A stretch of DNA of 64,000 bases from an uncultured bacterium. Its GTDB lineage: Bacteria; Patescibacteriota; Minisyncoccia; Phycocordibacterales; UBA918. The stretch covers positions 23,821-87,820 of the forward strand of contig CBFGXL010000001.1 of assembly GCA_965652925.1 (NCBI GenBank). The letters are read 5' to 3'. This document shows positions 2,245 to 54,876 of this stretch, piece after piece. The notes beneath the pieces are model-generated. The model saw nothing but the letters and a program-made list of their open reading frames with translations, searched no databases and had not been told where the DNA came from. Position numbers and translations under genes: made by a program. Numbering within the stretch: position 1 is the first letter of the stretch; each line of letters starts with the position of its first letter.

Positions 2245-2341
2245 CGGATATGAACTTTCTTTCATTTCTTCATCTCAATTTCATAAAAACTTCATACACT
2301 CGGGTGTCTGGCTCAACAGATATATTGTAATATTAAGAACT

Positions 2342-3016
2342 ATGCGAATACTCGTGATCGAAGACAACGTAAAACTCGCTGAGTCCATTAAAAAAGGGCT
2401 CGCGAAGAACGGCTACGCTGCTGACTGCATCCACGACGGACAGGAGGCAGCAGAACATTTGTTCATGAACAATCAGGATTATGACGCCGTTATTCTCGAC
2501 CTCATGCTTCCTAACCGCAGTGGTCTTGATATATGCATGGCAGCGCGGGAACGCGGAATCAGCACACCTATCATCGTCCTCACCGCAAAGGACGAGAAAG
2601 CTGACTCCATCGTCCTGCTTAATGCGGGAGCAGACGATTATATGGTCAAACCATTCGCCTTTGAGGAACTTCTGGCGCGCATCCGCGCGGTAACTCGCCG
2701 CCCAAGCGAAACACTTCCAACAGAATTGAGCGTTCACGATGTGCGGCTCAATATCAACACGAGGAAGGTATACGTCGGCAGCGAAGAAGTGGCATTCACA
2801 CTCAAGGAGTTTGCCATACTCGAGCTCTTCATGCGAAACCCAGACCGCGTGCTCACGCGCGAGTTCATCCTCGATCATGTGTGGGATTTCAACTTTAATT
2901 CATTAAGCAATGTGGTAGACGTTCATGTTAAAAATCTCAGACAAAAACTGGCAACTACTAAACAAGGAGATATCATTGAAACAGTTACCGGTGTGGGTTA
3001 CCGCATCAAAGCGTAA
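2342..3016 (+). CDS. OmpR/PhoB-family winged-helix response regulator
   Basis: Receiver domain (MRILVIEDN, DLMLP, LTAKDE) followed by a winged-helix C-terminus (ETVTGVGYRIKA). 224 aa. Confidence 0.9.
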   Translation: MRILVIEDNVKLAESIKKGLAKNGYAADCIHDGQEAAEHLFMNNQDYDAVILDLMLPNRSGLDICMAARERGISTPIIVLTAKDEKADSIVLLNAGADDYMVKPFAFEELLARIRAVTRRPSETLPTELSVHDVRLNINTRKVYVGSEEVAFTLKEFAILELFMRNPDRVLTREFILDHVWDFNFNSLSNVVDVHVKNLRQKLATTKQGDIIETVTGVGYRIKA

Positions 3017-4064
3017 CTATCAAAGCAACATCTTTACGCGCACCTGGTGGAATATCGTCATATTCCATACCTTTTTCGTTCTTGTGATGGTTATTGTCTT
3101 TGGCTATGTTCTCTACTACACCAAGCTCAATCTCTTTACGACCGTCAACAATATGCTTGACGTCATCATCAAGGGCGGGACAGTTGATGCTGCACTCATT
3201 ACCCAGACGTCTCGTGAGCTAGATCAGATCAACTTCCTCGTATTGTGCAGCATGGTGTTCTTTGCAGCCATAACCGGAGTACTTGCTGCACACATCACGC
3301 TCGTCCCTACTCGTAATGAATTTGCGCAACGCAAGAAATTCATCACAGCTGTTGCACACGAACTGCGCACGCCGCTTGCAGTTTTGCGCACCAGCAACGA
3401 AGTTGCTCTATATGATGTACACGACACGCCTGCGGTGCGCAAAACGCTTGAGGAGAATATTGAGGAAACTAAACATATAGCAAACATACTCAACAACCTT
3501 GTCATTTTCAGCCGTGTGGAAAACGAGGAAACGCTTGCCTTTGAGAAAGTAGATCTCAATAAAGTGTTACGCACTGTAGTTAAAAAGCTTGAGAAATTTG
3601 CCGAGAAGCATAAGGTTGCTCTGGCTATACAGGAGGAGAACACCCCTTCAATATCGGCAAACCTCACTGCTATTGAACAAATATTTTATAATCTCATCAA
3701 GAATGCGATTATATATTCAAAACCTCAAGGTGGAACAGTCCTTATTGCACCAACTGCGACAGCAACCCACGTTTCCGTTACCATAACAGACGATGGAATC
3801 GGTATGTCACAGAAGAATCTCAAACATATCTTTGAACCATTTTTCCGCATCAACCCCGACAGTTCCCCCTCAGCAACCGGAACTGGTTTAGGGCTCGCGC
3901 TTGTGCTTGAGATCGTAAAAATACACAAAGGTGTTATTCAAGTTGAAAGCAAAGAGGGTGTGGGGACCTCATTTACGCTGCAGTTTCCTCTTGCCTCATC
4001 AGTACTCATCAGTGAACCGCTTCCACAAAATGAGGGGTCGGTCACTTTCTCATTTGAAAAATAA
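2991..4064 (+). CDS. Sensor histidine kinase (two TMs, HisKA plus HATPase_c)
   Basis: H-box AHELRTPLAVL, N-box NLIKNAIIYS, and G-boxes DDGIGM and GTGLGLALV. The longest ORF starts at ATG 2925 and overlaps the response regulator by 92 nt. A GTG at 2991 is a plausible alternative start. The start is uncertain. Confidence 0.85.
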   Translation: MWVTASKRNYQSNIFTRTWWNIVIFHTFFVLVMVIVFGYVLYYTKLNLFTTVNNMLDVIIKGGTVDAALITQTSRELDQINFLVLCSMVFFAAITGVLAAHITLVPTRNEFAQRKKFITAVAHELRTPLAVLRTSNEVALYDVHDTPAVRKTLEENIEETKHIANILNNLVIFSRVENEETLAFEKVDLNKVLRTVVKKLEKFAEKHKVALAIQEENTPSISANLTAIEQIFYNLIKNAIIYSKPQGGTVLIAPTATATHVSVTITDDGIGMSQKNLKHIFEPFFRINPDSSPSATGTGLGLALVLEIVKIHKGVIQVESKEGVGTSFTLQFPLASSVLISEPLPQNEGSVTFSFEK

Positions 4065-9095: not shown

Positions 9096-9758
9096 TCAAA
9101 GAACATCAAGTAACTCCGCGTGGTTGGCTTCATTCCTAGAGAGCCACGCGCTTAACTTGCTCTTGTGGACGCGGATAATGTCCATTTCCCCATTGCCGAA
9201 GTCGAAATGCAGCAGTCCGACAACATTTTTCAGTTCCGGAAAGCCTTTTGCTCTCCAGGTCTGCCGAATGATCTTCTTCGCTTCGGGATATGCTGCAAGC
9301 ACATCCCTGCGCGTTTTTTTTGCCCGGGCGGCGAACCCGCATGGGAAATGAAGAGTCAAGGCGATACTGTCGAGCTTACCGATGATCTGGCCGATAAGGA
9401 TCTGGCCGAGAACATCGGTCGATGCATCTGGGGAAAGCGGTACGTCGCTGGATTTCACTCCATTGACAATAAGCAAGGGGCCACCGAACACCTTTACCGG
9501 TGCAACGCGTCCGCGGGCTTCCGCATGGAACAAAGAGTGGGCTCCTTGATGCATGTGATGCTGTCGCTCAGGATCCGCACACATCAGGCAACCCATTTTG
9601 CCTTTTACGTCTATTTTTGACGGGTCTATCTGTTCGCAGACCCCCTCACGAAGCAACAGATCATGCAGTTCGCGCAAACCTTCGGTTGTACCGTAGGTTG
9701 TGTCCTGCAGAGCTGTATACAAATGGTCGAGGAAGTCTGGCGCCGCATTCGTGTTCAT
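9096..9758 (-). CDS. Hypothetical protein co-oriented with SulP; possibly a divergent beta-carbonic-anhydrase-like protein
   Basis: SD GAGAGG upstream of ATG 9758, and a 19-nt gap to the SulP ORF. It contains C..CADPER and a later HFPCG (HxxCG), reminiscent of beta-CA zinc motifs but non-canonical. The family assignment is speculative. Confidence 0.4.
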   Translation of the reverse strand: MNTNAAPDFLDHLYTALQDTTYGTTEGLRELHDLLLREGVCEQIDPSKIDVKGKMGCLMCADPERQHHMHQGAHSLFHAEARGRVAPVKVFGGPLLIVNGVKSSDVPLSPDASTDVLGQILIGQIIGKLDSIALTLHFPCGFAARAKKTRRDVLAAYPEAKKIIRQTWRAKGFPELKNVVGLLHFDFGNGEMDIIRVHKSKLSAWLSRNEANHAELLDVL

Positions 9759-9919
9759 TCTTGCCTCTCTTTTCTGAACCTGAATTGACCGCCGATGATA
9801 CTACTCCCGCCCTTTACAACTTGCAAGTGAGATATGCACTTTGCCGTGCAAACGTGGAAAAATTAATAAAATAGAGTATAGTCTGGTGGGTTACACAGCA
9901 GCCGGTACGGGGAGGCAAA

Positions 9920-10375
9920 ATGACGTACACACGAGATCACGGCAAGATAGCGCTTCAATATCTCAAGGAGCGCAGTGCGGAGCTGACACATTTTCAGCGA
10001 ATGCGAGGCGCCCTCTTCTTCCACGAGAACCTTCACGCGCTTTTGCAACAGGGCCGAGAATGCCACAGATGCGCGTGCGGACCGCATCTGCCTTACTTCA
10101 GTATCATGCTCGCGTTGCGCATCTACAACGGCGTAGAGAGCGAACCAGACGACCTCTTCCTGTGGATGTGCTATGTCTATGTATTGTACATCCGGCAGCA
10201 CGACATGTTCGACATCGGCGAAAAAGGCCACACGCATATGCGGAACCAGGCTTCTAAGCTTGGGGTGCGTGAACTGGACATGCTCATCTTCTTCAGAGAG
10301 CTTGCTGACGATCTTTGGGAGCTCCGTATGGAGAAACTTGTAGGAAGCCGACCACATATGAGCCTCGCCTCATAG
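9920..10375 (+). CDS. Hypothetical protein (151 aa); the coding strand is ambiguous
   Basis: Strong SD GGGGAGG 4 nt upstream of ATG 9920, a TATAGT -10-like hexamer at 9877-9882, and a hairpin with a downstream T-tract at 10394-10424. A 164-aa ORF on the opposite strand (9863..10357) overlaps in codon-phase. Composition statistics cannot separate the two. Confidence 0.3.
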   Translation: MTYTRDHGKIALQYLKERSAELTHFQRMRGALFFHENLHALLQQGRECHRCACGPHLPYFSIMLALRIYNGVESEPDDLFLWMCYVYVLYIRQHDMFDIGEKGHTHMRNQASKLGVRELDMLIFFRELADDLWELRMEKLVGSRPHMSLAS

Positions 10376-10426: not shown

Positions 10427-11662
10427 TTAATCGATAAGTTTCCAGATGCCTTTATCCTCTTCCCCGTCGATCTTGAAGATCGCTATACCTTTAAGGCCAT
10501 ATTCTTTTGCAAGTTCGATCTTCTCTTCGATCGCTCCATCATCACTGTATCCAACGTAGCGTACGGTCACGGTCTGACCAGTTGCATTTGCGTACAAGAG
10601 CGCTTTTGCCGCGGCTTCGTTACCTTTTGTAGTTCCTTTTGGAGTTGGAAGCGCATTGAGCACTTTATACGGAGAATTCTTCGGGAAATATGTGTAGCTG
10701 AGCTCCCCTGCCTTGTTGCGTCCCGGCTCAACATCATATTCTTCTGCAACATCAAGGATGTCAGGAACATTCAGTGCACCAATGCGCTTGTAGTTGCTAT
10801 ACCAGTTAGGTGCAACCGTCACCTCATAGTGATACCCGTAGGTAGGAACGCCAAGCAGTATCTTGTCCTCTGGGATATCTTCAAGCGCAAGTTTAATGAC
10901 CTTCTCCACCCAATCTGCGTCTGAAACAGGGAAATAGGGTTCGCCTGCCTTCGATTCATTGAGCTTCAGGTCAGCCCGCTGCTGGTCATAGGCCATGATC
11001 TCAACGCGGTCGCAGTATTCACCAATCGCCTCATAGTCATTTGCATACTCAAGCACCTTCGGTACTTTCTTATAGAGTGACGTTGGGGGTGTTCGTGCCT
11101 CAACCGTACAGGTCAGCAACTTGTCTTCCTCCTCAAGCTCTTCTTTAAGCTCCTTCAAGAAGAGCGAAAAGTGCTCTTTGGTTGAAGAAAGCTTCTCTTC
11201 ATAGTCAATATCAATGCCATCAAAATCATGTTTCTCTACTTCCTTCATGATATTGCTGATGTGCTTTTTGCGGAGCTCTTTATAGCTTAAGTTTGCATGC
11301 ACGCTTCCACCATCGCTTGTCATTACCGTTGGTATCACAAGAACATCTTTTGAACGTGCAAGCTTGATGAACTTCCTCCATTCAGAAGTTGACATTCCAG
11401 CATTGTCCTTGATCGTCCCGTCACTCTGGAGTGTGTATGAGAACGGAAACACGATATCAAGATCCTTTATATTTTTTGTGGCATCCTTAATCCCCTTGGA
11501 ATCAGCCCAATAAGGTATCCAACCAGCCACCTCAAGTGCAACATCATCATCTTCATCTGAAGCAGCAAATGTCAGTATTGGAAATGAATGAAAAATGATA
11601 AGCAGTCCAAGTGCCACAATAAGCACGTGGAAAAGTACTTTTTTTACTAATGTCATACTCAT
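10427..11662 (-). CDS. Glycoside hydrolase family 18 (chitinase-like) secreted or membrane-anchored protein
   Basis: GH18 catalytic motif FDGIDIDYEE (DxxDxDxE), an N-terminal signal/TM, 411 aa. Confidence 0.8.
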   Translation of the reverse strand: MSMTLVKKVLFHVLIVALGLLIIFHSFPILTFAASDEDDDVALEVAGWIPYWADSKGIKDATKNIKDLDIVFPFSYTLQSDGTIKDNAGMSTSEWRKFIKLARSKDVLVIPTVMTSDGGSVHANLSYKELRKKHISNIMKEVEKHDFDGIDIDYEEKLSSTKEHFSLFLKELKEELEEEDKLLTCTVEARTPPTSLYKKVPKVLEYANDYEAIGEYCDRVEIMAYDQQRADLKLNESKAGEPYFPVSDADWVEKVIKLALEDIPEDKILLGVPTYGYHYEVTVAPNWYSNYKRIGALNVPDILDVAEEYDVEPGRNKAGELSYTYFPKNSPYKVLNALPTPKGTTKGNEAAAKALLYANATGQTVTVRYVGYSDDGAIEEKIELAKEYGLKGIAIFKIDGEEDKGIWKLID

Positions 11663-15512: not shown

Positions 15513-15540
15513 TTGACAAATTAGTCTTATATTGTATAGT
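15513..15540 (+). promoter_or_regulatory. Putative sigma-70 promoter: TTGACA-16nt-TATAGT, with TG just upstream of the -10
   Basis: TTGACA at 15513-15518 and TATAGT at 15535-15540, about 65 nt upstream of the GTG start at 15606. Confidence 0.4.
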
Positions 15541-15605
15541 TAATGTGGAATTCCTGTTCGTCTGAACAGGTCACCGACAAGCACATCAGAGCATAAGGAG
15601 ACACT

Positions 15606-16046
15606 GTGCGCAACGAAAAAATTGAGGAGAAGCTCGCGCTGTTCCAGACGGAGCTCGAGGCGTGGGCTACACGCGAAGAACTGCTACAGGCAGGAGAACG
15701 CATCATCCTTTCCTATGTCATCAGGAAAGAGGGCTCCGAAGCGCTTCTCGATCTTCCAATCGGCGAGTTCTTCACCTTTGCACGGATCACCAGTGCAGGC
15801 GCTCGGCCCGGTGTTGCCACTCGCGTGGTCCACCTCTTGAGGGACTGGGGCATCGATGACTATCGTAAGGTGGACATCACCACCGTCCGTGAACTCGTCG
15901 CCTACGAAGGCAACGAGTTGCTCCTGAGAAGTGTGCACAACTGCGGCAACCTGTCTGTTGCTGCAATCGCCAAGACTCTCGAGCATGAAGGACTGCCGGT
16001 GCCTGAAGACTTGAAGCTCATCGCAGAGAAGTTCTTTCGCCCATAA
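15606..16046 (+). CDS. Hypothetical protein with two helix-hairpin-helix-like segments
   Basis: GTG start with SD AAGGAG 5 nt upstream. ARPGVATRVVHLLRDWGI and NCGNLSVAAIAKTLEHEGL look HhH-like. No confident family. Confidence 0.5.
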   Translation: MRNEKIEEKLALFQTELEAWATREELLQAGERIILSYVIRKEGSEALLDLPIGEFFTFARITSAGARPGVATRVVHLLRDWGIDDYRKVDITTVRELVAYEGNELLLRSVHNCGNLSVAAIAKTLEHEGLPVPEDLKLIAEKFFRP

Positions 16047-16051
16047 GACTC

Positions 16052-16087
16052 GACCCCGACGGTTCAAACCGCCGGGGTCATTTTATT
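16052..16087 (+). terminator. Rho-independent terminator (GACCCCGACGG / CCGCCGGGGTC plus TTTTATT)
   Basis: Hairpin with one stem mismatch, followed by a T-tract. Confidence 0.5.
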
Positions 16088-16120
16088 CTTCGGTGCACTA
16101 CTTTGCGCACATCTGCGGAA

Positions 16121-16618
16121 CTATCCTCGCGGGCCATCGCCGAACGGGAAACTTTTCAATACCCTTTTGCTCTTGAGTGCATCCCTCGCAACAAGTACCA
16201 TACACGATGCATGATGATGTGTCCCCGGTTTAAACTCTCTGCCCTCAACCGTCGAGACGTGCGGGCGGAAGCCTGCCCCTGCCCAGTGTAGGTTCTTCAC
16301 CGTTCCGCCATTCTCGATAATGCGCATGAAGAGTTGTGTGTGGAGCAGGTCAAGTGCACGATCGCGCACAAGCACATAGACGGGTACGTCGTTTTTGGGA
16401 CCGAAAAGGGCCGGCTCGTGGGAGACAAGGCTGATGTACCCTTCGCGAACATCTGCGGCAAGCGTCGCCAGATCAGCTGCAAAAGGACCTTGTTCAGCCA
16501 CTTTTCCCAGCGTAAACCACTGCATGAGCGTACAATGGAGCGGCAAGGGCTCGTCTGGCCCATATACAGTGCCCTCAGGCATATCTTCAATGGGCAGAAA
16601 AACAAGATACTCAGACAT
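16121..16618 (-). CDS. 2H phosphoesterase superfamily protein (LigT / 2'-5' RNA ligase-like)
   Basis: Two H-x-T/S-x motifs: PLHCTLMQWF and RPHVSTVEG, in a ~165-aa protein. Start taken at MSEYLVFLPIED. Confidence 0.5.
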   Translation of the reverse strand: MSEYLVFLPIEDMPEGTVYGPDEPLPLHCTLMQWFTLGKVAEQGPFAADLATLAADVREGYISLVSHEPALFGPKNDVPVYVLVRDRALDLLHTQLFMRIIENGGTVKNLHWAGAGFRPHVSTVEGREFKPGTHHHASCMVLVARDALKSKRVLKSFPFGDGPRG

Positions 16619-26974: not shown

Positions 26975-28447
26975 TCAGAACGTGAACCTGCGTACTTTCC
27001 AGTGCTCTCCTTCACGCAAAATCTCACCGAACTGCATTTCTCCGTTTGGCAGGAACAACTTGCTTTCTGTCATACTCCCCGCACTGACTATCGGAATGGC
27101 ATTCCACACCGCACTTACTTTAAGCATCGCATCAAGCTGATACTCAAGCGAAAATGGATCAACGAACCACGAATGGGAGATGGGATGAGCAATGAACGCA
27201 GGATCTCGGAAGTGCTGTGCATGACGTACTCCATAAGGAACCATTGTTTCAAAACAGAACAATATTCCGGGCAAATGTTTGGGGTATCGCGCATCATCTG
27301 AAGCTATCCCTGGCTTGAAACGTGCAAAGTCATTGACTTGCTTCTCCTCCTCACTAGACAGAAAGAATGAAAGAAGAAACCGGTACATGTAGGACAAATA
27401 CTCACCCTGTGGAACAAGGTACCGTTTGTCGACAAAATAGACTCCGTTGTCACGCAGATCATACATATACGAACGCAATACATCAGTCCCTCTGTCATCA
27501 ATAGCCGGACCGCTGTCGACAATAACGATGTCTGTCTTTTCTGTTTGTGCATGAGCCCATGCTATAAGCGCCTCATCTGTAGCAAAACCTTTGCGAAATT
27601 GTGCTTCCTCTGAAAGGATTATTGCATCAGGGTTTTGCCTGAGCGCATATCCAACCGCTTCTTCTAATGCTTCATGTTTTATAAGCGCAGCTCCTTCCTG
27701 TGAATCGAATTGATGATCAAAATACATTTCGATCGCGATCACTTCTGTGCCCGTGTTTTGATTCTTGTGCACAGCAAACGGTGGTACCAGAAAAGAGAGA
27801 ATAACCACCATTCCTGTAAGGACAAGTGCCGCTGCTTGAACTTTCCTCTTTTGATTACACAAAACAAAAGCACCCGTGCCGATCAGTGCTGCTAAATAAG
27901 AAAGTCCATACACACCCGCTAGTGATGCAAACTGCAGCAGATGTGGTTCTTCAGCAAGAAGATATCCGAGGTAGCCGTAGCTGAACCCGACGTTTAAAAA
28001 ACTACCAGGACCAAACGCATAGACAGAAAACAAAAAAGAACGGAATAGCTCAGAAGCGACCCACAACACGGGGACCAAAATTAATAGTCGAGGGACATTA
28101 TTGATGCACATGCGGGCCAAAAGCACAAAAACTCCGCCACTTAACCCCATTGCGATTGAAGTTAAGACCCAGTACACCCCGATGGCAGACAACTGGATGG
28201 CAACGGGCGCATCCGCTAACCACTGTATTGGGAACGTACTCCACACCCAGAAGAAAGAACCTGCATAATGCAGTGTCCCCGTGAGTGTGCCGTAAGCAAA
28301 GAGCTTCAGGACTGAACGTTCAAGCGTGATGCCATAGAGAAGAAATATAAAGGCAGGAATAAAACACCAAAAGCATGATGAGTATATAAACGCGACGGCA
28401 AAAAAAAGACCGCTCAGGGTAAAAACCATCAGTGGATGCATCGTCAT
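26975..28447 (-). CDS. lnt: Apolipoprotein N-acyltransferase (Lnt): polytopic membrane domain plus CN-hydrolase domain
   Basis: N-terminal multi-TM region and a C-terminal nitrilase-like domain, with catalytic Cys in GILFCFETMVP (Lnt CYE-type motif). Start set at MTMHPLMVF (28447) because a terminator for the upstream gene lies at 28496-28542. TATAAT lies 7 nt upstream of that ATG. Confidence 0.75.
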   Translation of the reverse strand: MTMHPLMVFTLSGLFFAVAFIYSSCFWCFIPAFIFLLYGITLERSVLKLFAYGTLTGTLHYAGSFFWVWSTFPIQWLADAPVAIQLSAIGVYWVLTSIAMGLSGGVFVLLARMCINNVPRLLILVPVLWVASELFRSFLFSVYAFGPGSFLNVGFSYGYLGYLLAEEPHLLQFASLAGVYGLSYLAALIGTGAFVLCNQKRKVQAAALVLTGMVVILSFLVPPFAVHKNQNTGTEVIAIEMYFDHQFDSQEGAALIKHEALEEAVGYALRQNPDAIILSEEAQFRKGFATDEALIAWAHAQTEKTDIVIVDSGPAIDDRGTDVLRSYMYDLRDNGVYFVDKRYLVPQGEYLSYMYRFLLSFFLSSEEEKQVNDFARFKPGIASDDARYPKHLPGILFCFETMVPYGVRHAQHFRDPAFIAHPISHSWFVDPFSLEYQLDAMLKVSAVWNAIPIVSAGSMTESKLFLPNGEMQFGEILREGEHWKVRRFTF

Positions 28448-28495
28448 ACCATCATTATACGTCACGTAAATATCCAAAATACTAATAAATTGGAT

Positions 28496-28542
28496 AAAGC
28501 AAAAAGCGGCGCGCAGCATTTCAGAATGAAATACTGCGCGCC
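28496..28542 (-). terminator. Rho-independent terminator (long bipartite hairpin GGCGCGCAG...CTGCGCGCC plus TTTTT on the minus strand)
   Basis: 9-bp GC-rich outer stem with an inner ATTTC/GAAAT helix, followed on the minus strand by GCTTTTTGCTTT. Downstream of the 28547..29098 gene. Confidence 0.55.
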
Positions 28543-28546
28543 GCTG

Positions 28547-29098
28547 TCACCGCATCAGACCGCCCGTGTTAAAGGACGGTCCTGTGATGTCTTCGAAGTA
28601 GAAGAAACGGAGCGTGTTGTCCCCGGGGAACCGGAGAGCAACCCCTGCTGGAGCCATGTCAACAGACCGGAGGAGCAAGTGCGCCGGACGATTGTCCAGA
28701 TCTTCCTTTCTTGGAGGAAGCGTGAAGATGCTCGGCGTTGGCCCCATCACCTCCGTATCGACAGGAATGAACCCGGCGACAATGAGGTTGAGGTCTGAAG
28801 CGAACCAGTCGAACTGAGCCTGGGAATTGAATATCTTCCCCGGCTCCACGGCAGGCCCACCGTCGAACGTGAAGTACAGCCCCTTGCAGAGCCAAAGCTT
28901 GAACGTTCCTTCGGTGGTTTCCTCGACAGAGCCGTCTTGGGCGTATTCAAGCGTTCCGTACTTGCCGGAAAGCTGTGCGACACAGCCGCCGGCAGCACTG
29001 GTCGTCCCTTGCGCGATGTCCTGAGCAGATGCCAGAGAGACACTGGCGAGGCCCAAATTAACCGCAAGGCACAGAGCCAGACAGAAAAGTATACGCAT
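28547..29098 (-). CDS. Hypothetical secreted protein (184 aa) in a GC-richer segment
   Basis: Signal peptide MRILFCLALCLAVNLGLASVSLASA. About 58% GC versus ~47% in the flanking lnt and hisS. No family recognised. Confidence 0.5.
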   Translation of the reverse strand: MRILFCLALCLAVNLGLASVSLASAQDIAQGTTSAAGGCVAQLSGKYGTLEYAQDGSVEETTEGTFKLWLCKGLYFTFDGGPAVEPGKIFNSQAQFDWFASDLNLIVAGFIPVDTEVMGPTPSIFTLPPRKEDLDNRPAHLLLRSVDMAPAGVALRFPGDNTLRFFYFEDITGPSFNTGGLMR

Positions 29099-29257
29099 GT
29101 TCGCCTCCCTTGGCGTTTGCAAAAAACAGATGGCTAAACCAAAAGAGACTATAAATTGATTATATAAATATGTCAAGAGACAGCAAAAAGGGCGGCGCGT
29201 ACTTCTTTCTTTCGAAAGTTATACGCGTCGCCCTATACCTAGACTGCTCTGCATGGA

Positions 29258-29530
29258 TCACCAAACGGTGAGCGTCATGCCGAGGTCGTCCGGCGCGCAG
29301 AGATGCTTGGTTTCCGGAGTTTCCTCCAGAGTGTAGACGTACTTGCCGTCTTCCACCTCCTTGAGGCCGACGTCGCCGCAGAGCACCTGCTCGTTGTCGG
29401 CGATCACCAGCACCATGGGCTTGTCGGCGAGCTTGACCCAATCCAGATGAGTCACTTCGCTGGCATAAACCGGTGCGACGGTGCCGAGCATCAGAGCCGC
29501 ACAAGCGGCAACAACAATGTTCTTGTTCAT
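29258..29530 (-). CDS. Hypothetical small secreted protein (90 aa) in a GC-richer segment
   Basis: Strong SD GGAGGG 4 nt upstream, signal peptide MNKNIVVAACAALMLGTVAPVYA, about 62% GC. Confidence 0.5.
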   Translation of the reverse strand: MNKNIVVAACAALMLGTVAPVYASEVTHLDWVKLADKPMVLVIADNEQVLCGDVGLKEVEDGKYVYTLEETPETKHLCAPDDLGMTLTVW

Positions 29531-29747
29531 TCTTCCCTCCAGGGTTTGTTGAACAGATCAACGATTGATCTTGATAAGTACTATATACCATTATAAACAA
29601 TTTGTCAAGTACTCATCCCTTTAAAGGACTGTGTATAAGGCCAAAACCGCTACAAATTAGGAAAAACGCCCTACTAGGCCATTTTTCAAGGAGTCATACG
29701 GCATAAATTCATTTGCAGAAAAACAAGGCCTCCCATACAATCTTCAT

Positions 29748-30980
29748 ATGAATAAAGAAAAACTCTCAACGGATCCGTACAAGGGAGTCCGCGATTTCTA
29801 CCCTGAAGATATGGCTATACTTCAGTATATTTTCAGTGTATGGTCGCAGACGGCAGAATCATTCGGTTACGAGAGGTATGATGCATCTATATTAGAACCT
29901 GCCGAACTTTACCGCAGTAAAACCAGTGATGAGATAGTCAATGAACAAACCTATACTTTTATTGATCGAGGGGACCGCGAAGTGACTCTGCGCCCAGAAA
30001 TGACCCCGACAGTTGCACGTATGATCGCAGGAAAGCGACGCGAGCTTTCCTTCCCTGTCCGCTGGTACTCGATACCGAATCTCTTCCGGTACGAGCGTCC
30101 GCAACGCGGACGCTTGCGGGAACATTACCAGCTCAACTGTGATCTTTTTGGTGCAGATCACTTCAGTGCTGATGTTGAAATGATCGCACTTGCCTCTCAG
30201 CTGCTGCTTAATTTCGGTGCTGATCCAGACATGTTTGAGATTCGTATCAATGATCGAAGCTGGCTTGATGAAGTATTCTCCAACGAGGGATTCAATGAGG
30301 AACAAAAAAAGCAGATGCTTGCATTGCTTGATCGCAAAGAAAAAATCAATAATTTCAATGAAGAGGCGCTGAAGATCGCCGGCAAGCCATTTGCTCTACC
30401 AGCGAAGCTTGATGAGAACAGTAATCTAGCTCAGGTTATAGATGGCCTCCGGAAACTTGGCATTGAAAATGTGAAGGTGTCACCCTCTACAGTGCGTGGC
30501 TTCACGTATTATACCGGCACGATCTTCGAGATTTTCGATGTTTCAGGAGAGAACAACCGGTCATTGCTTGGCGGAGGACGTTATGACAATCTCACGGGAT
30601 TGTTTGGCGGAAATGCTATCTCAGGGATTGGCTTTGGTATGGGTGATGTTACCATGCGTGATTTCTTGGAGACACATGATCTCCTTACCTCTGGCATCAC
30701 CGCTCCGACACTCATGATCATCCCTACTGATAGTGAATTCAATCTTGAAGGACAACGTCTTGCTCAGGAATTCCGGGCCGCAGGCATAGCAACCGCAGTA
30801 GATATCTCAACAAAAAAGATCGGCAAGAAGATAAGCGACGCGGCTGATGCATTTGTCACCTATGCTTTGGTTCTTGGCGAAGATGAAGCATCTTCGCATA
30901 CTTATGTGGTGAAGAACCTTGGAGAGAAACAAGAATTTTCTGGTACACTTGCTGAACTTATTGCTAACATAGAGGCATAA
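29748..30980 (+). CDS. hisS: Histidyl-tRNA synthetase
   Basis: GVRDFYPED, class II motif 2 FRYERPQRGRLREHYQ, and a C-terminal anticodon-binding domain. TTGCAG-17-TACAAT ends 6 nt before the ATG, suggesting a leaderless mRNA. Confidence 0.9.
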   Translation: MNKEKLSTDPYKGVRDFYPEDMAILQYIFSVWSQTAESFGYERYDASILEPAELYRSKTSDEIVNEQTYTFIDRGDREVTLRPEMTPTVARMIAGKRRELSFPVRWYSIPNLFRYERPQRGRLREHYQLNCDLFGADHFSADVEMIALASQLLLNFGADPDMFEIRINDRSWLDEVFSNEGFNEEQKKQMLALLDRKEKINNFNEEALKIAGKPFALPAKLDENSNLAQVIDGLRKLGIENVKVSPSTVRGFTYYTGTIFEIFDVSGENNRSLLGGGRYDNLTGLFGGNAISGIGFGMGDVTMRDFLETHDLLTSGITAPTLMIIPTDSEFNLEGQRLAQEFRAAGIATAVDISTKKIGKKISDAADAFVTYALVLGEDEASSHTYVVKNLGEKQEFSGTLAELIANIEA

Positions 30981-32368: not shown

Positions 32369-32464
32369 AAGTGTATTGTAGCCTTATATAGAGGCATTTT
32401 CCAAGGAAACTGCTGTACAACTGTGGTATACTGCACGTATACAATTAATTATTGAATATATCTT

Positions 32465-33247
32465 ATGGACGAAACTCCGGAAGAAACACAGGCACAGGCC
32501 TCTGAATCATCTGCACCCAAGGCGACACGCCCTTCATTAGCAGTCCCGATTTCTATTGTTTTTGGTTTTGGTTTGGTTGCAGCAGCGATATTCTTCAATG
32601 GAAATCCTCTTCCATTTACCACTCCCAACAACGAGGCTGCGGTTCTTGACTCAGACAACCCAACAACAGGAGAAATACGTCCCGTTGATGAAACAGACCA
32701 TATACGCGGCAATCCGAATGCACCTATTGTTATGATCGAATACTCTGATTATGATTGCCCATTCTGCAAGAACTTCCATGAGACGATGAAGCAGGTTATG
32801 AATACGTATGGTACCGATGGGAAGGTTGCGTGGGTGTACCGGCACATGCCTCTGGAACAACTGCACCCGAATGCGCCATACATAGCACAGGCCTCAGAGT
32901 GCGTTGCTGACCTCGGTGGCAGCGATGCGTTCTGGAAATTCAGCGATCTCGTATTTGGAGAGCGCGCAACAAATGAACCAACTAATACTGCGCGTTTGAA
33001 TGAATTCGCAACAACTGCCGGGGTAAGTGGTACTGCATTTGACGCCTGCATGGCCGAAGGACGAACCACGGCACGTGTAGAAGCCGACTTCGCTGATGCC
33101 CTGAAAGCTGGCGGCAAAGGAACTCCCTATACACTTGTGCTTGTCGGCGGACAGCAGGGTGTTATAAGCGGAGCGCAACCATACTCAACGGTAAGCAAGA
33201 TCCTCGATACACTCATTGCTCAGATCGAAGGTGGAGCACAAGAATAA
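32465..33247 (+). CDS. DsbA-family thiol:disulfide oxidoreductase (membrane-anchored)
   Basis: N-terminal TM and the thioredoxin-fold CPFC active site in YSDYDCPFCKNFH. Confidence 0.75.
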   Translation: MDETPEETQAQASESSAPKATRPSLAVPISIVFGFGLVAAAIFFNGNPLPFTTPNNEAAVLDSDNPTTGEIRPVDETDHIRGNPNAPIVMIEYSDYDCPFCKNFHETMKQVMNTYGTDGKVAWVYRHMPLEQLHPNAPYIAQASECVADLGGSDAFWKFSDLVFGERATNEPTNTARLNEFATTAGVSGTAFDACMAEGRTTARVEADFADALKAGGKGTPYTLVLVGGQQGVISGAQPYSTVSKILDTLIAQIEGGAQE

Positions 33248-54552: not shown

Positions 54553-54876
54553 ATGAAACCTCGGCTGGATCAAAGTCGGGGTATTTTGTACGAAAACCAG
54601 CATGAGCTCTTTTTCATGGAGGATTATATGCTCGCTGAGGAAACGCGCCCTGTCGTGCAGGAAGCAGAAGTCAGCTTCTATGTCTACTTCATTTCACCCG
54701 AGGATTTCAGACTTGAAGAGTTCCTCGAACTGGTGAATGAACGCTACCCGCTCACCATTGCTCACAAGAGCAAAAGTGGCGTAACGACGGTCACTATGCG
54801 CCTCCGGCCTTCGCACCTGCGCCTGCTTGTAGCGATACTGCCCAAGCACGTGGGTATATCGTACGAGCCTGTCTGA
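54553..54876 (+). CDS. Hypothetical protein (107 aa)
   Basis: ORF followed by a hairpin terminator. No SD, no recognised family. Confidence 0.3.
   Translation: MKPRLDQSRGILYENQHELFFMEDYMLAEETRPVVQEAEVSFYVYFISPEDFRLEEFLELVNERYPLTIAHKSKSGVTTVTMRLRPSHLRLLVAILPKHVGISYEPV

What the first reader, a model, noticed from the sequence alone, without database searches (positions are those of the whole stretch)
28496..29600. GC-richer patch encoding two small secreted proteins between lnt and hisS
About 1 kb at ~58-62% GC versus ~47% in both flanks. It encodes a 184-aa and a 90-aa protein, each with a clean signal peptide and no recognisable family. One has a strong SD while the flanking genes are leaderless. 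It has its own terminator. Compositionally and regulatorily distinct, it may be a horizontally acquired secreted effector, toxin or immunity-like pair.
Basis: partly seen in the sequence, partly recalled or inferred. Interest (0 to 1): 0.5.

Follow-up and report, generated by a model that had tools for sequence, protein, structure and literature searches.

The report
Conserved high-expression secreted protein pair
The GC-rich kilobase between lnt and hisS is not a recent foreign insert: it holds two old, lineage-restricted Saccharibacteria genes for small secreted proteins that appear built for very high expression, and their codon choice is what raises the GC content.

The parts
29580..29608 (-). 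Promoter of the small gene, TTGACA-N17-TATAGT (11 of 12 consensus positions)
   Evidence: It is one of only three promoters with at least 11 of 12 matches in the whole window. It is conserved in L009, L010 (10 of 12) and L012.
29555..29571 (-). Inverted repeat AGATCAA-TCG-TTGATCT just downstream of the -10 element. It could be a 5' stem-loop of the mRNA or an operator; the role is not established.
   Evidence: Sequence. An AAGATC...GATC motif is conserved at the same place in L009 and L010, and a weaker AAGACC...GGTC palindrome stands there in L012. Folding energy alone is not significant (z -0.4).
29536..29540 (-). Shine-Dalgarno GGAGG, 5 nt before the ATG of the small gene
   Evidence: Conserved in L009.
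29258..29530 (-). Small gene of 90 aa. The signal peptide ends at VYA|SE. The mature protein is about 66 aa with pI 4.3 and two conserved Cys (C51, C78).
   Evidence: Orthologue of 83 aa in L009 at 49-54% identity. Probable homologue in L011 (hhalign E 6.7e-5, both Cys aligned). GC3 0.77.
29185..29234 (-). Intrinsic terminator of the small gene (GGGCGACGCGTA...TACGCGCCGCCC followed by TTTTT)
   Evidence: -28.2 kcal/mol, z -6.0. Conserved in L009 with changed stem bases.
29148..29176 (-). Promoter of the large gene, TTGACA-N17-TATAGT (11 of 12 consensus positions)
   Evidence: Conserved as TTGACA-N17-TACAGT in L009.
29104..29108 (-). Shine-Dalgarno GGAGG, 5 nt before the ATG of the large gene
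   Evidence: GGAGGCG is conserved in L009, L010 and L012.
28547..29098 (-). Large gene of 183 aa. The signal peptide ends at ASA|QD and is followed by a variable linker. The mature protein is about 158 aa with pI 4.5; C71 is invariant and C39 nearly so. The predicted fold is a beta-sheet plus a long helix, weakly LolA/LolB-like.
   Evidence: GC3 0.66.
28497..28545 (-). Intrinsic terminator of the large gene (19-bp stem followed by TTTTT). It separates the large gene from the leaderless lnt promoter and start.
   Evidence: -35.5 kcal/mol, z -7.9. Compensatory stem changes in L009 and L007.

Best explanation
The patch holds two old, vertically transmitted genes found only in a narrow group whose one named member is a Saccharibacteria MAG. 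They are independently transcribed.

Each is a compact cassette with these elements:
- a near-consensus sigma-70 promoter;
- a 5' UTR with a strong GGAGG ribosome-binding site, in a genome whose other genes mostly lack one or are leaderless;
- an ORF with a Sec / signal-peptidase-I signal peptide;
- a strong intrinsic terminator.

The products are small, acidic, exported proteins. Each has one conserved cysteine pair, probably oxidised outside the cell; a membrane-anchored DsbA-like CPFC protein is encoded 3 kb away.

The GC excess is the footprint of the codon usage of these genes, plus an Ala/Gly/Pro/Thr-rich composition in the larger one. They prefer NNC over NNT and AAG over AAA, and they avoid A-ending codons. 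rpoB and rpoC show the same direction of bias more weakly. The bias is therefore most simply read as selection linked to very high expression, not as foreign ancestry.

The proteins evolve fast, as surface or host-facing proteins do. The larger one probably folds as an open beta-sheet packed against a long helix, reminiscent of LolA/LolB-type hydrophobic-ligand carriers. My working guess is an abundant envelope or extracellular binding protein. The small protein may be a partner.

Shown: anatomy, conservation, the composition pattern and the fold prediction. Inferred: high expression, disulfides, export and ligand binding.
For: Conservation at the same locus:
- L009 (a Saccharibacteria MAG) has uppP-exo-hisS-small-big-lnt-bPH-tm68-prmC.
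- L010 has hisS-big-lnt. L011 has hisS-small'-big-bPH.
- The family is tiny: 7 representatives among 1.84 billion proteins, all 168-178 aa with a signal peptide; eight of the nine aligned members keep both Cys.

Composition:
- The GC excess is confined to the coding sequences (57.6% and 59.0%). The spacers are 38-43% GC. The GC3 z-scores are 3.0 and 4.7.
- GC3 of family members exceeds that of their flanks in five lineages with 45-53% background GC.
- The bias is directional and shared. TTC/TTT is 82/12 and AAG/AAA is 40/2 across the family. GAA is retained and CGC is not favoured.
- Synonymous sites of the flanking genes are saturated between the window and L009 (pS 0.7-0.9). After correcting for the bias, the pair shows only a slightly larger excess of identical codons than the flanks (0.12 against 0.06). 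The bias has therefore persisted rather than being a recent import.

Link to expression signals:
- rpoC and rpoB show the same direction of bias (NNC fraction 0.68 and 0.59 against a median of about 0.43; AAG/AAA 70/22 and 60/13).
- Only three promoters in the window match at least 11 of 12 consensus positions. They precede the three genes with the highest NNC fraction of 51 genes. The chance of that coincidence is about 1 in 20,825.
- The pair has the only clear GGAGG sites at credible gene starts; one other ORFan, at 54628, may have one.
- Promoters, ribosome-binding sites and terminators are conserved, with compensatory changes in the terminator stems.

Fold and disulfides:
- The AF2 model has pLDDT 72 overall and 81-91 in the core, with pTM 0.67.
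- A DsbA-like protein with a CPFC motif lies at 32465-33247.
Against: - There are no expression data. High expression is inferred from sequence signals only.
- The ribosomal-protein genes in the window (S16, L19) and the pilin-like genes do not show the bias.
- Avoidance of A-ending four-fold codons is not shared by rpoB and rpoC.
- GAG also rises somewhat in the family (46/34 against 169/234 in the flanks), so a general GC-raising process may contribute.
- No sequence-profile link to any family was found.
- The large gene of L011 is only 31% identical to the window's, although L011's flanks are about as close to the window as L009's are. Strictly vertical, clock-like descent is therefore too simple.
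Confidence: 0.6

Rival explanations
1. Ancient horizontal acquisition. The ancestor of this Saccharibacteria sub-lineage acquired the cassette from a GC-rich donor, for example an actinobacterial host. The cassette has since kept donor-like signals (ribosome-binding site, sigma-70 consensus promoter, GC-rich codons).
For: - The genes are GC-richer than every genome that carries them.
- They use a ribosome-binding site in an otherwise largely SD-less genome.
- The family is restricted to a narrow clade.
- The L012 copy sits in a different context.
Against: - No homologue outside the small family was found in 5.8 billion or 1.84 billion proteins, so there is no donor.
- Synonymous sites of the flanks are saturated between lineages, so donor composition should have decayed unless selection maintains it.
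- The codon pattern is not a plain GC shift: GAA is kept, CGC and TCG are unused, and GCT and TCT are frequent.
- The intergenic parts of the cassette are AT-rich.
- An unrelated third cassette in the window shows the same syndrome.
Confidence: 0.15
2. Recombination-driven GC enrichment. The locus is a diversifying hot spot where alleles are exchanged among related Saccharibacteria, and GC-biased gene conversion raises GC3.
For: - Two deeply divergent allele types of the large gene (23-35% identity between types) do not track flank similarity. L011's flanks are about as close to the window as L009's, yet its large gene is 31% identical against 64% for L009.
- lnt is missing in L011 and the small gene is missing in L010.
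- Protein divergence is raised (dN 0.27-0.35; dN/dS 0.19 and 0.57).
- GAG and four-fold G/C-ending codons also rise.
Against: - The strongest shifts are codon-specific (NNC, AAG) and match rpoB and rpoC.
- CGC is avoided.
- The third high-GC3 cassette at 15606 shares the promoter and ribosome-binding-site syndrome, which recombination would not explain.
- dS in the pair is depressed by the bias, so dN/dS is inflated.
Confidence: 0.12
3. One reading: a recently acquired island encoding a secreted toxin/effector with its immunity partner.
For: - Atypical composition, own expression signals and two adjacent small ORFs without family matches.
Against: - The segment is conserved in position in relatives down to about 30% identity.
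- There are no tRNA genes in the window, no flanking repeats and no phage, plasmid or viral similarity; no integrase gene lies between the housekeeping flanks.
- There are no toxin or defence domain hits.
- The two genes are separately transcribed, with a terminator between them.
- The large gene occurs alone in L010 and L012.
- Both products carry cleavable signal peptides.
Confidence: 0.03

Closest known systems
LolA/LolB superfamily of hydrophobic-ligand carriers (LolA, LolB, RseB/MucB, VioE, ependymin-related proteins; by my own knowledge also mycobacterial LppX/LprG)
   Same: - It is exported and has a similar size (about 160 aa mature).
- The predicted fold is an antiparallel beta-sheet packed against a helix.
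- It sits next to lnt, the enzyme that triacylates lipoproteins, in three lineages.
   Different: - The model has about 7 strands and one long helix, against 11 strands and a helical plug in LolA.
- There is no sequence-profile match.
- The organism is presumably monoderm and needs no outer-membrane lipoprotein transport (my own knowledge).
- The link to lnt is not obligatory. L011 lacks lnt and L012 has another context, and the two genes are separated by a terminator.
Highly expressed genes with translationally selected codon bias (general phenomenon; preference for C-ending codons in two-fold pyrimidine boxes)
   Same: - NNC is preferred over NNT and AAG over AAA, in the same direction as rpoB and rpoC of this genome.
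- The bias is coupled to the strongest promoters and ribosome-binding sites in the window.
   Different: - Expression was not measured.
- The few ribosomal-protein genes in the window do not share the bias.
- Avoidance of A-ending four-fold codons goes beyond what rpoB and rpoC show.
Compositionally atypical genomic islands from horizontal transfer
   Same: A local GC excursion of about 10 percentage points and lineage-restricted ORFan genes.
   Different: - The position is conserved between housekeeping genes across divergent relatives.
- The GC excess is limited to codon positions.
- The spacers are AT-rich.
- There are no mobility genes or repeats and no external homologues.

Membership tests
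Recently acquired genomic island / mobile element | Absent from the same locus in related genomes | tested here: not met
   The pair is present between hisS and lnt in L009. The large gene is at the same locus in L010 and L011.
Recently acquired genomic island / mobile element | Mobility hallmarks: flanking direct repeats, integrase or transposase, tRNA target, or similarity to phages or plasmids | tested here: not met
   The window has no tRNA genes. Only short chance-level repeats were found. There was no match in viral contigs, phages or plasmids.
Recently acquired genomic island / mobile element | Atypical composition across the whole segment, non-coding DNA included | tested here: not met
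   The coding sequences are 57.6% and 59.0% GC, but the three non-coding pieces are 38-43% GC. The excess lies in GC3, and in GC2 for the large gene.
Toxin/effector-immunity gene pair | A recognisable toxin or defence domain | tested here: not met
   No hits in Pfam, NCBIfam, PHROGs or PADLOC.
Toxin/effector-immunity gene pair | Co-transcribed genes that strictly co-occur | tested here: not met
   Each gene has its own promoter, and a terminator lies between them. L010 and L012 carry the large gene without the small one.
LolA/LolB superfamily | Open 11-stranded beta-barrel with a helical lid, significant structural match | tested here: inconclusive
   [not shown]
LolA/LolB superfamily | Sequence-profile match to LolA/LolB/LppX-type families | tested here: not met
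   No such family appeared at E up to 1 in Pfam for nine family members. NCBIfam gave none for the window protein. PDB profile searches gave none.
LolA/LolB superfamily | Hydrophobic cavity that binds acyl chains | not testable with these tools
   The model coordinates could not be inspected. The only hint is that four Phe positions (F78, F90, F99, F125) are invariant across the nine aligned sequences.
Sec / signal-peptidase-I secreted proteins | N-terminal n-h-c signal peptide with an AXA-type cleavage site, conserved in homologues; no conserved lipobox Cys | tested here: met
   By inspection of alignments A1, A2 and A6. No dedicated predictor was available. The VAAC in the small protein is not conserved (Leu in L009). 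C10 of the large protein lies inside the h-region.
Highly expressed genes with selected codon bias | Codon preference in the same direction as reference highly expressed genes of the same genome | tested here: met
   rpoC and rpoB share the NNC and AAG preference. This is only partial support, because S16 and L19 do not.
Highly expressed genes with selected codon bias | Measured high mRNA or protein abundance | not testable with these tools
   No expression data are accessible. The inference rests on promoter, ribosome-binding-site and terminator strength.

The most novel reading that the evidence does not exclude
The larger protein is a minimal LolA/LprG-like lipid or lipoprotein carrier that an episymbiotic Saccharibacterium secretes in large amounts. 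It either captures host-derived lipids, which these bacteria cannot make, or handles the triacylated lipoproteins made by the adjacent Lnt. The small disulfide protein is its partner. The rapid divergence and the two allele types would reflect adaptation to different hosts.
Probability: 0.12. Interest if true: 0.65.

Novelty: new member of a known kind. Interest (0 to 1): 0.3.

Why it matters
- As a candidate transferred island, this finding can be retired. A local GC peak here marks codon bias in strongly expressed genes, not foreign DNA. That is a useful caution for composition-based island calling in small symbiont genomes.
- It points to an uncharacterised, probably abundant pair of secreted proteins specific to one Saccharibacteria sub-lineage. 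Such proteins are reasonable candidates for envelope or host-contact functions in organisms whose surface biology is largely unknown.
- It shows that a genome that mostly lacks ribosome-binding sites or uses leaderless starts can reserve canonical ribosome-binding sites and consensus promoters for a handful of genes.

Tried and rejected
Searches that found nothing or could not run:
- Rfam and tRNA scans of the window found nothing.
- The Foldseek afdb50 library was not available.
The second job was then spent on a deeper alignment of the large protein, so the small protein has no model.
- Two metagenome-contig scans and one viral scan found no further loci. One attempt failed for lack of conserved columns.
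- PDB sequence-profile searches gave only noise.
- Literature searches for the sample accession, for Saccharibacteria with LolA, Lnt or secreted proteins, and a read of the Patescibacteria Tn-seq paper gave nothing on this family.

Ideas considered and rejected:
- Lipoprotein status. The Cys residues in the signal peptides are either not conserved or lie inside the h-region.
- A recent transfer between the two lineages, suggested by low synonymous divergence (pS 0.41 and 0.64 against 0.7-0.9 in the flanks). Shared codon bias explains most of the difference.
- The 5' inverted repeat as a proven stabilising hairpin. Its energy is not better than that of shuffled sequences.

Full report
**Observation**

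The window is 47.4% GC. Positions 28547-29530 are 55.6% GC, and 28501-29500 is the richest 1-kb window at 56.0% (z about 3.5). The stretch 15601-16600 is practically equal at 55.6%.

Two minus-strand ORFs fill the patch: 28547-29098 (183 aa) and 29258-29530 (90 aa). By inspection, both begin with a classical n-h-c signal peptide ending in an AXA-type site (ASA|QD and VYA|SE). Neither matches any Pfam, NCBIfam, PHROG or PADLOC family.

Each gene has its own set of expression signals:
- a TTGACA-N17-TATAGT promoter (11 of 12 consensus positions);
- a GGAGG ribosome-binding site 5 nt before the ATG;
- a strong hairpin-plus-T terminator, at -35.5 and -28.2 kcal/mol with z -7.9 and -6.0.

The corrections are that both genes have these signals and that the GC figures were slightly high.

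**What organism, and is the segment conserved?**

The large protein has only three relatives at E of 0.01 or better among 5.8 billion protein clusters (99%, 63% and 60% identity). The small protein has one, at 98%.

The contigs that encode these relatives settle the question of acquisition.
- The 63% relative lies on a contig of a MAG titled uncultured Candidatus Saccharibacteria. Its gene order is uppP, exonuclease, hisS, small (83 aa), large (176 aa), lnt, bPH protein, 68-aa membrane protein, prmC. This is exactly the order in the window.
- An exhaustive profile search of 1.84 billion representatives found only seven family representatives. All are 168-178 aa with a signal peptide, and nearly all keep two Cys.
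- A third word-indexed search with the wider alignment returned more distant members whose contigs could be read.
- In L010 the large gene (about 30% identical) again sits between hisS and lnt, without a small gene.
- In L011 it sits between hisS and the bPH gene. It is preceded there by a small signal-peptide ORF that aligns to the small-protein profile, with both Cys matched (hhalign E 6.7e-5). lnt is missing.
- In L012 the large gene stands alone between a GIY-YIG gene and bipA.

The segment is thus an old resident of this syntenic block, not a recent insert. In addition:
- no tRNA gene, meaningful flanking repeat, phage, plasmid or viral match was found;
- the window has no paralogues of either protein.

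**Why is it GC-rich?**

*Where the excess lies.* It is confined to the coding sequences (57.6% and 59.0% GC). The spacers hisS-small, small-large and large-lnt are 38-43% GC. Within the genes the excess sits mainly at third positions. GC3 is 0.66 and 0.77, against 0.48 ± 0.06 for 49 other genes. GC2 also contributes in the larger gene.

*The excess is family-wide.* It does not depend on the host genome's background:

| Lineage | GC3 of family gene(s) | GC3 of flanking genes |
|---|---|---|
| L009 | 0.72 / 0.76 | about 0.58 |
| L010 | 0.83 | about 0.58 |
| L012 | 0.77 | about 0.39 |
| L011 | 0.59 / 0.68 | about 0.50 |

*The bias is directional rather than a plain GC shift*.
- Across the family TTC/TTT is 82/12 and AAG/AAA is 40/2.
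- TAC, GAC and ATC are preferred, and A-ending four-fold codons are avoided.
- In the window's pair GAA stays at 9 of 15, CGC and TCG are unused, and GCT and TCT remain common.

*The bias is old.* Between the window and L009 the flanking genes are saturated at synonymous sites (pS 0.70-0.91). The pair shows pS of 0.41 and 0.64. Once the shared codon bias is taken into account, the excess of identical codons at conserved residues is only 0.12, against 0.06 in the flanks. The low pS is therefore mostly the bias itself, not a sign of recent exchange. The bias has been maintained over a long time.

**Link to expression signals**

- Within the window, rpoC and rpoB show the same direction of bias. 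Their NNC fractions are 0.68 and 0.59 against a median of about 0.43, and their AAG/AAA counts are 70/22 and 60/13.
- A scan of both strands of all 64 kb finds only three promoters matching at least 11 of 12 consensus positions. Two are the promoters of this pair. The third, at 15513, precedes the 146-aa ORFan at 15606-16046, which occupies the other GC peak of the window.
- That third gene has the same layout: a 5' hairpin, an AAGGAG ribosome-binding site, GC3 of 0.67 and a terminator.
- These three genes are exactly the top three of 51 for NNC preference (0.80, 0.75, 0.71). The chance of that coincidence is about 1 in 20,825.
- Among 36 gene starts examined, only this pair has a canonical ribosome-binding site. 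A window-wide GGAGG scan adds at most one more credible case, at 54628.
- Many other genes look leaderless, with a -10 hexamer ending about 6 nt before the ATG. Examples are hisS, lnt and uppP, and the hisS and lnt sites are conserved in relatives.
- In L001, L009 and L012 the only promoter matching at least 11 of 12 positions in each locus is the one serving the family gene.
- Promoters, ribosome-binding sites and terminators align between lineages, and the terminator stems show compensatory changes.

I therefore read the GC patch as the codon-usage footprint of genes set up for very high expression. Caveats:
- expression itself was not measured;
- the S16, L19 and pilin-like genes do not share the bias;
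- avoidance of A-ending codons goes beyond what rpoB and rpoC show.

**The proteins**

Both mature proteins are acidic, with pI 4.5 (about 158 aa) and 4.3 (about 66 aa). Each keeps two cysteines in its mature part (C39/C71 and C51/C78); one distant member, P0008, lacks the first. A membrane-anchored DsbA-like protein with a CPFC motif is encoded at 32465-33247, so extracytoplasmic disulfide formation is plausible.

Between the window and L009 the pair has diverged at least as much as all but one of its neighbours:
- protein identity is 64% and 54%, against 73-94% for six of the seven neighbours; prmC, at 61%, is comparable;
- dN is 0.27 and 0.35;
- dN/dS is 0.19 and 0.57, inflated by the depressed dS.

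At greater distances the contrast grows: about 31% identity for the large protein against 62-84% for full-length flanking genes in L011.

The large gene falls into two deeply divergent types. One comprises the window, L009 and L007. The other comprises L010, L011, L012, P0011 and P0012. The types do not track flank similarity. This points to episodic fast evolution or occasional allele replacement within the clade. I could not resolve which.

**Fold**

AlphaFold2 with three sequences gave pLDDT 66. With eight sequences it gave pLDDT 72 overall, 81-91 in the core, and pTM 0.67. Both models have the same topology: three strands, a long helix (residues 93-109), then three strands.

- Foldseek independently ranked LolA, RseB, MucB, VioE and ependymin-related proteins first. 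All of these belong to the LolA-like superfamily.
- The model has fewer strands than LolA.
- No sequence profile links the families.

This is a lead towards a hydrophobic-ligand-binding envelope protein, made slightly more interesting by the neighbouring lnt. However, lnt is separately transcribed and is dispensable for the association (L011, L012).

**Verdict**

The compositional and regulatory distinctness is real, and both products are probably secreted.

The most likely account (about 0.6) is a conserved, fast-evolving pair of abundantly expressed secreted proteins, restricted to a narrow group whose one named member is a Saccharibacteria MAG, whose codon bias creates the GC peak.

The alternatives are:
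- ancient transfer with retained composition (about 0.15);
- recombination-linked GC enrichment at a diversifying locus (about 0.12);
- the original island/toxin idea (about 0.03).

Function remains unknown. The LolA-like carrier idea deserves a direct test. Interest is modest (0.3).

Noticed in passing
window 15513-16085 (+): A third cassette has the same syndrome as the pair. It has a TTGACA-N16-TATAGT promoter (one of only three in the window matching at least 11 of 12 positions), a 5' hairpin (CCTGTTCGTCTGAACAGG), an AAGGAG ribosome-binding site and a GTG start. The 146-aa cytoplasmic ORFan has GC3 of 0.67 and an NNC fraction of 0.75, and is followed by a terminator. The only family hint is a very weak one to the RNA polymerase alpha C-terminal domain (NCBIfam E 0.027)..
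   Followed up: partly
whole window; examples at 29700-29750, 28440-28475 and 32369-32400: The genome appears largely free of Shine-Dalgarno sites. Many genes look leaderless: a -10-like hexamer ends about 6 nt before the ATG of hisS, lnt, uppP and the gene at 1098-1868. The hisS and lnt arrangements are conserved in relatives.
   Followed up: partly
window 26975-28447 (-); L011 1508-1740: An Lnt (apolipoprotein N-acyltransferase) homologue occurs in a presumably monoderm Saccharibacterium. It matches Pfam LNT_N but scores below the TIGR00546 cutoff (88 against 132.9 bits). It diverges fast (73% identity to L009, 44% to L010) and is absent from the same locus in L011.
   Followed up: partly
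window 32465-33247 (+): A membrane-anchored DsbA-like thioredoxin with a CPFC motif lies next to uppP. It implies extracytoplasmic disulfide formation in this organism.
   Followed up: partly
L011 1001-1507 compared with window 28547-29098; L010, L012: The large gene has two deeply divergent allele types, with 23-35% identity between types. L011's flanking genes are about as close to the window as L009's are, yet its large gene is 31% identical against 64% for L009. This suggests episodic rapid evolution or allele replacement at the locus.
   Followed up: partly
window 2333-2878 (-), 9096-9758 (-), 9863-10357 (-), 54553-54876 (+): Four further GC3-rich ORFs (GC3 0.58-0.61) have no Pfam or NCBIfam match and no signal peptide. 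In this window the GC3-rich genes are all lineage-specific unknowns. The gene at 54553 may start at 54628, behind a GGAGG site.
   Followed up: no
window 29555-29571 (-); L009 about 9533-9551; L010 about 3002-3020: A short inverted repeat (AAGATC...GATCT) is conserved immediately downstream of the -10 element of the family promoter in the window, L009 and L010, and L012 has a weaker AAGACC...GGTC palindrome at the same place. It could be an operator or a 5' mRNA stem-loop. Its folding energy is not significant on its own.
   Followed up: partly
window 10427-11662 (-), 57204-58563 (-): Other envelope-related genes lie nearby: a GH18 (chitinase/endo-beta-N-acetylglucosaminidase-like) protein with an N-terminal hydrophobic signal-like segment, and two ORFs whose N-termini look like type IV prepilins by eye (not run against any family library). 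None shares the codon bias of the pair.
   Followed up: no
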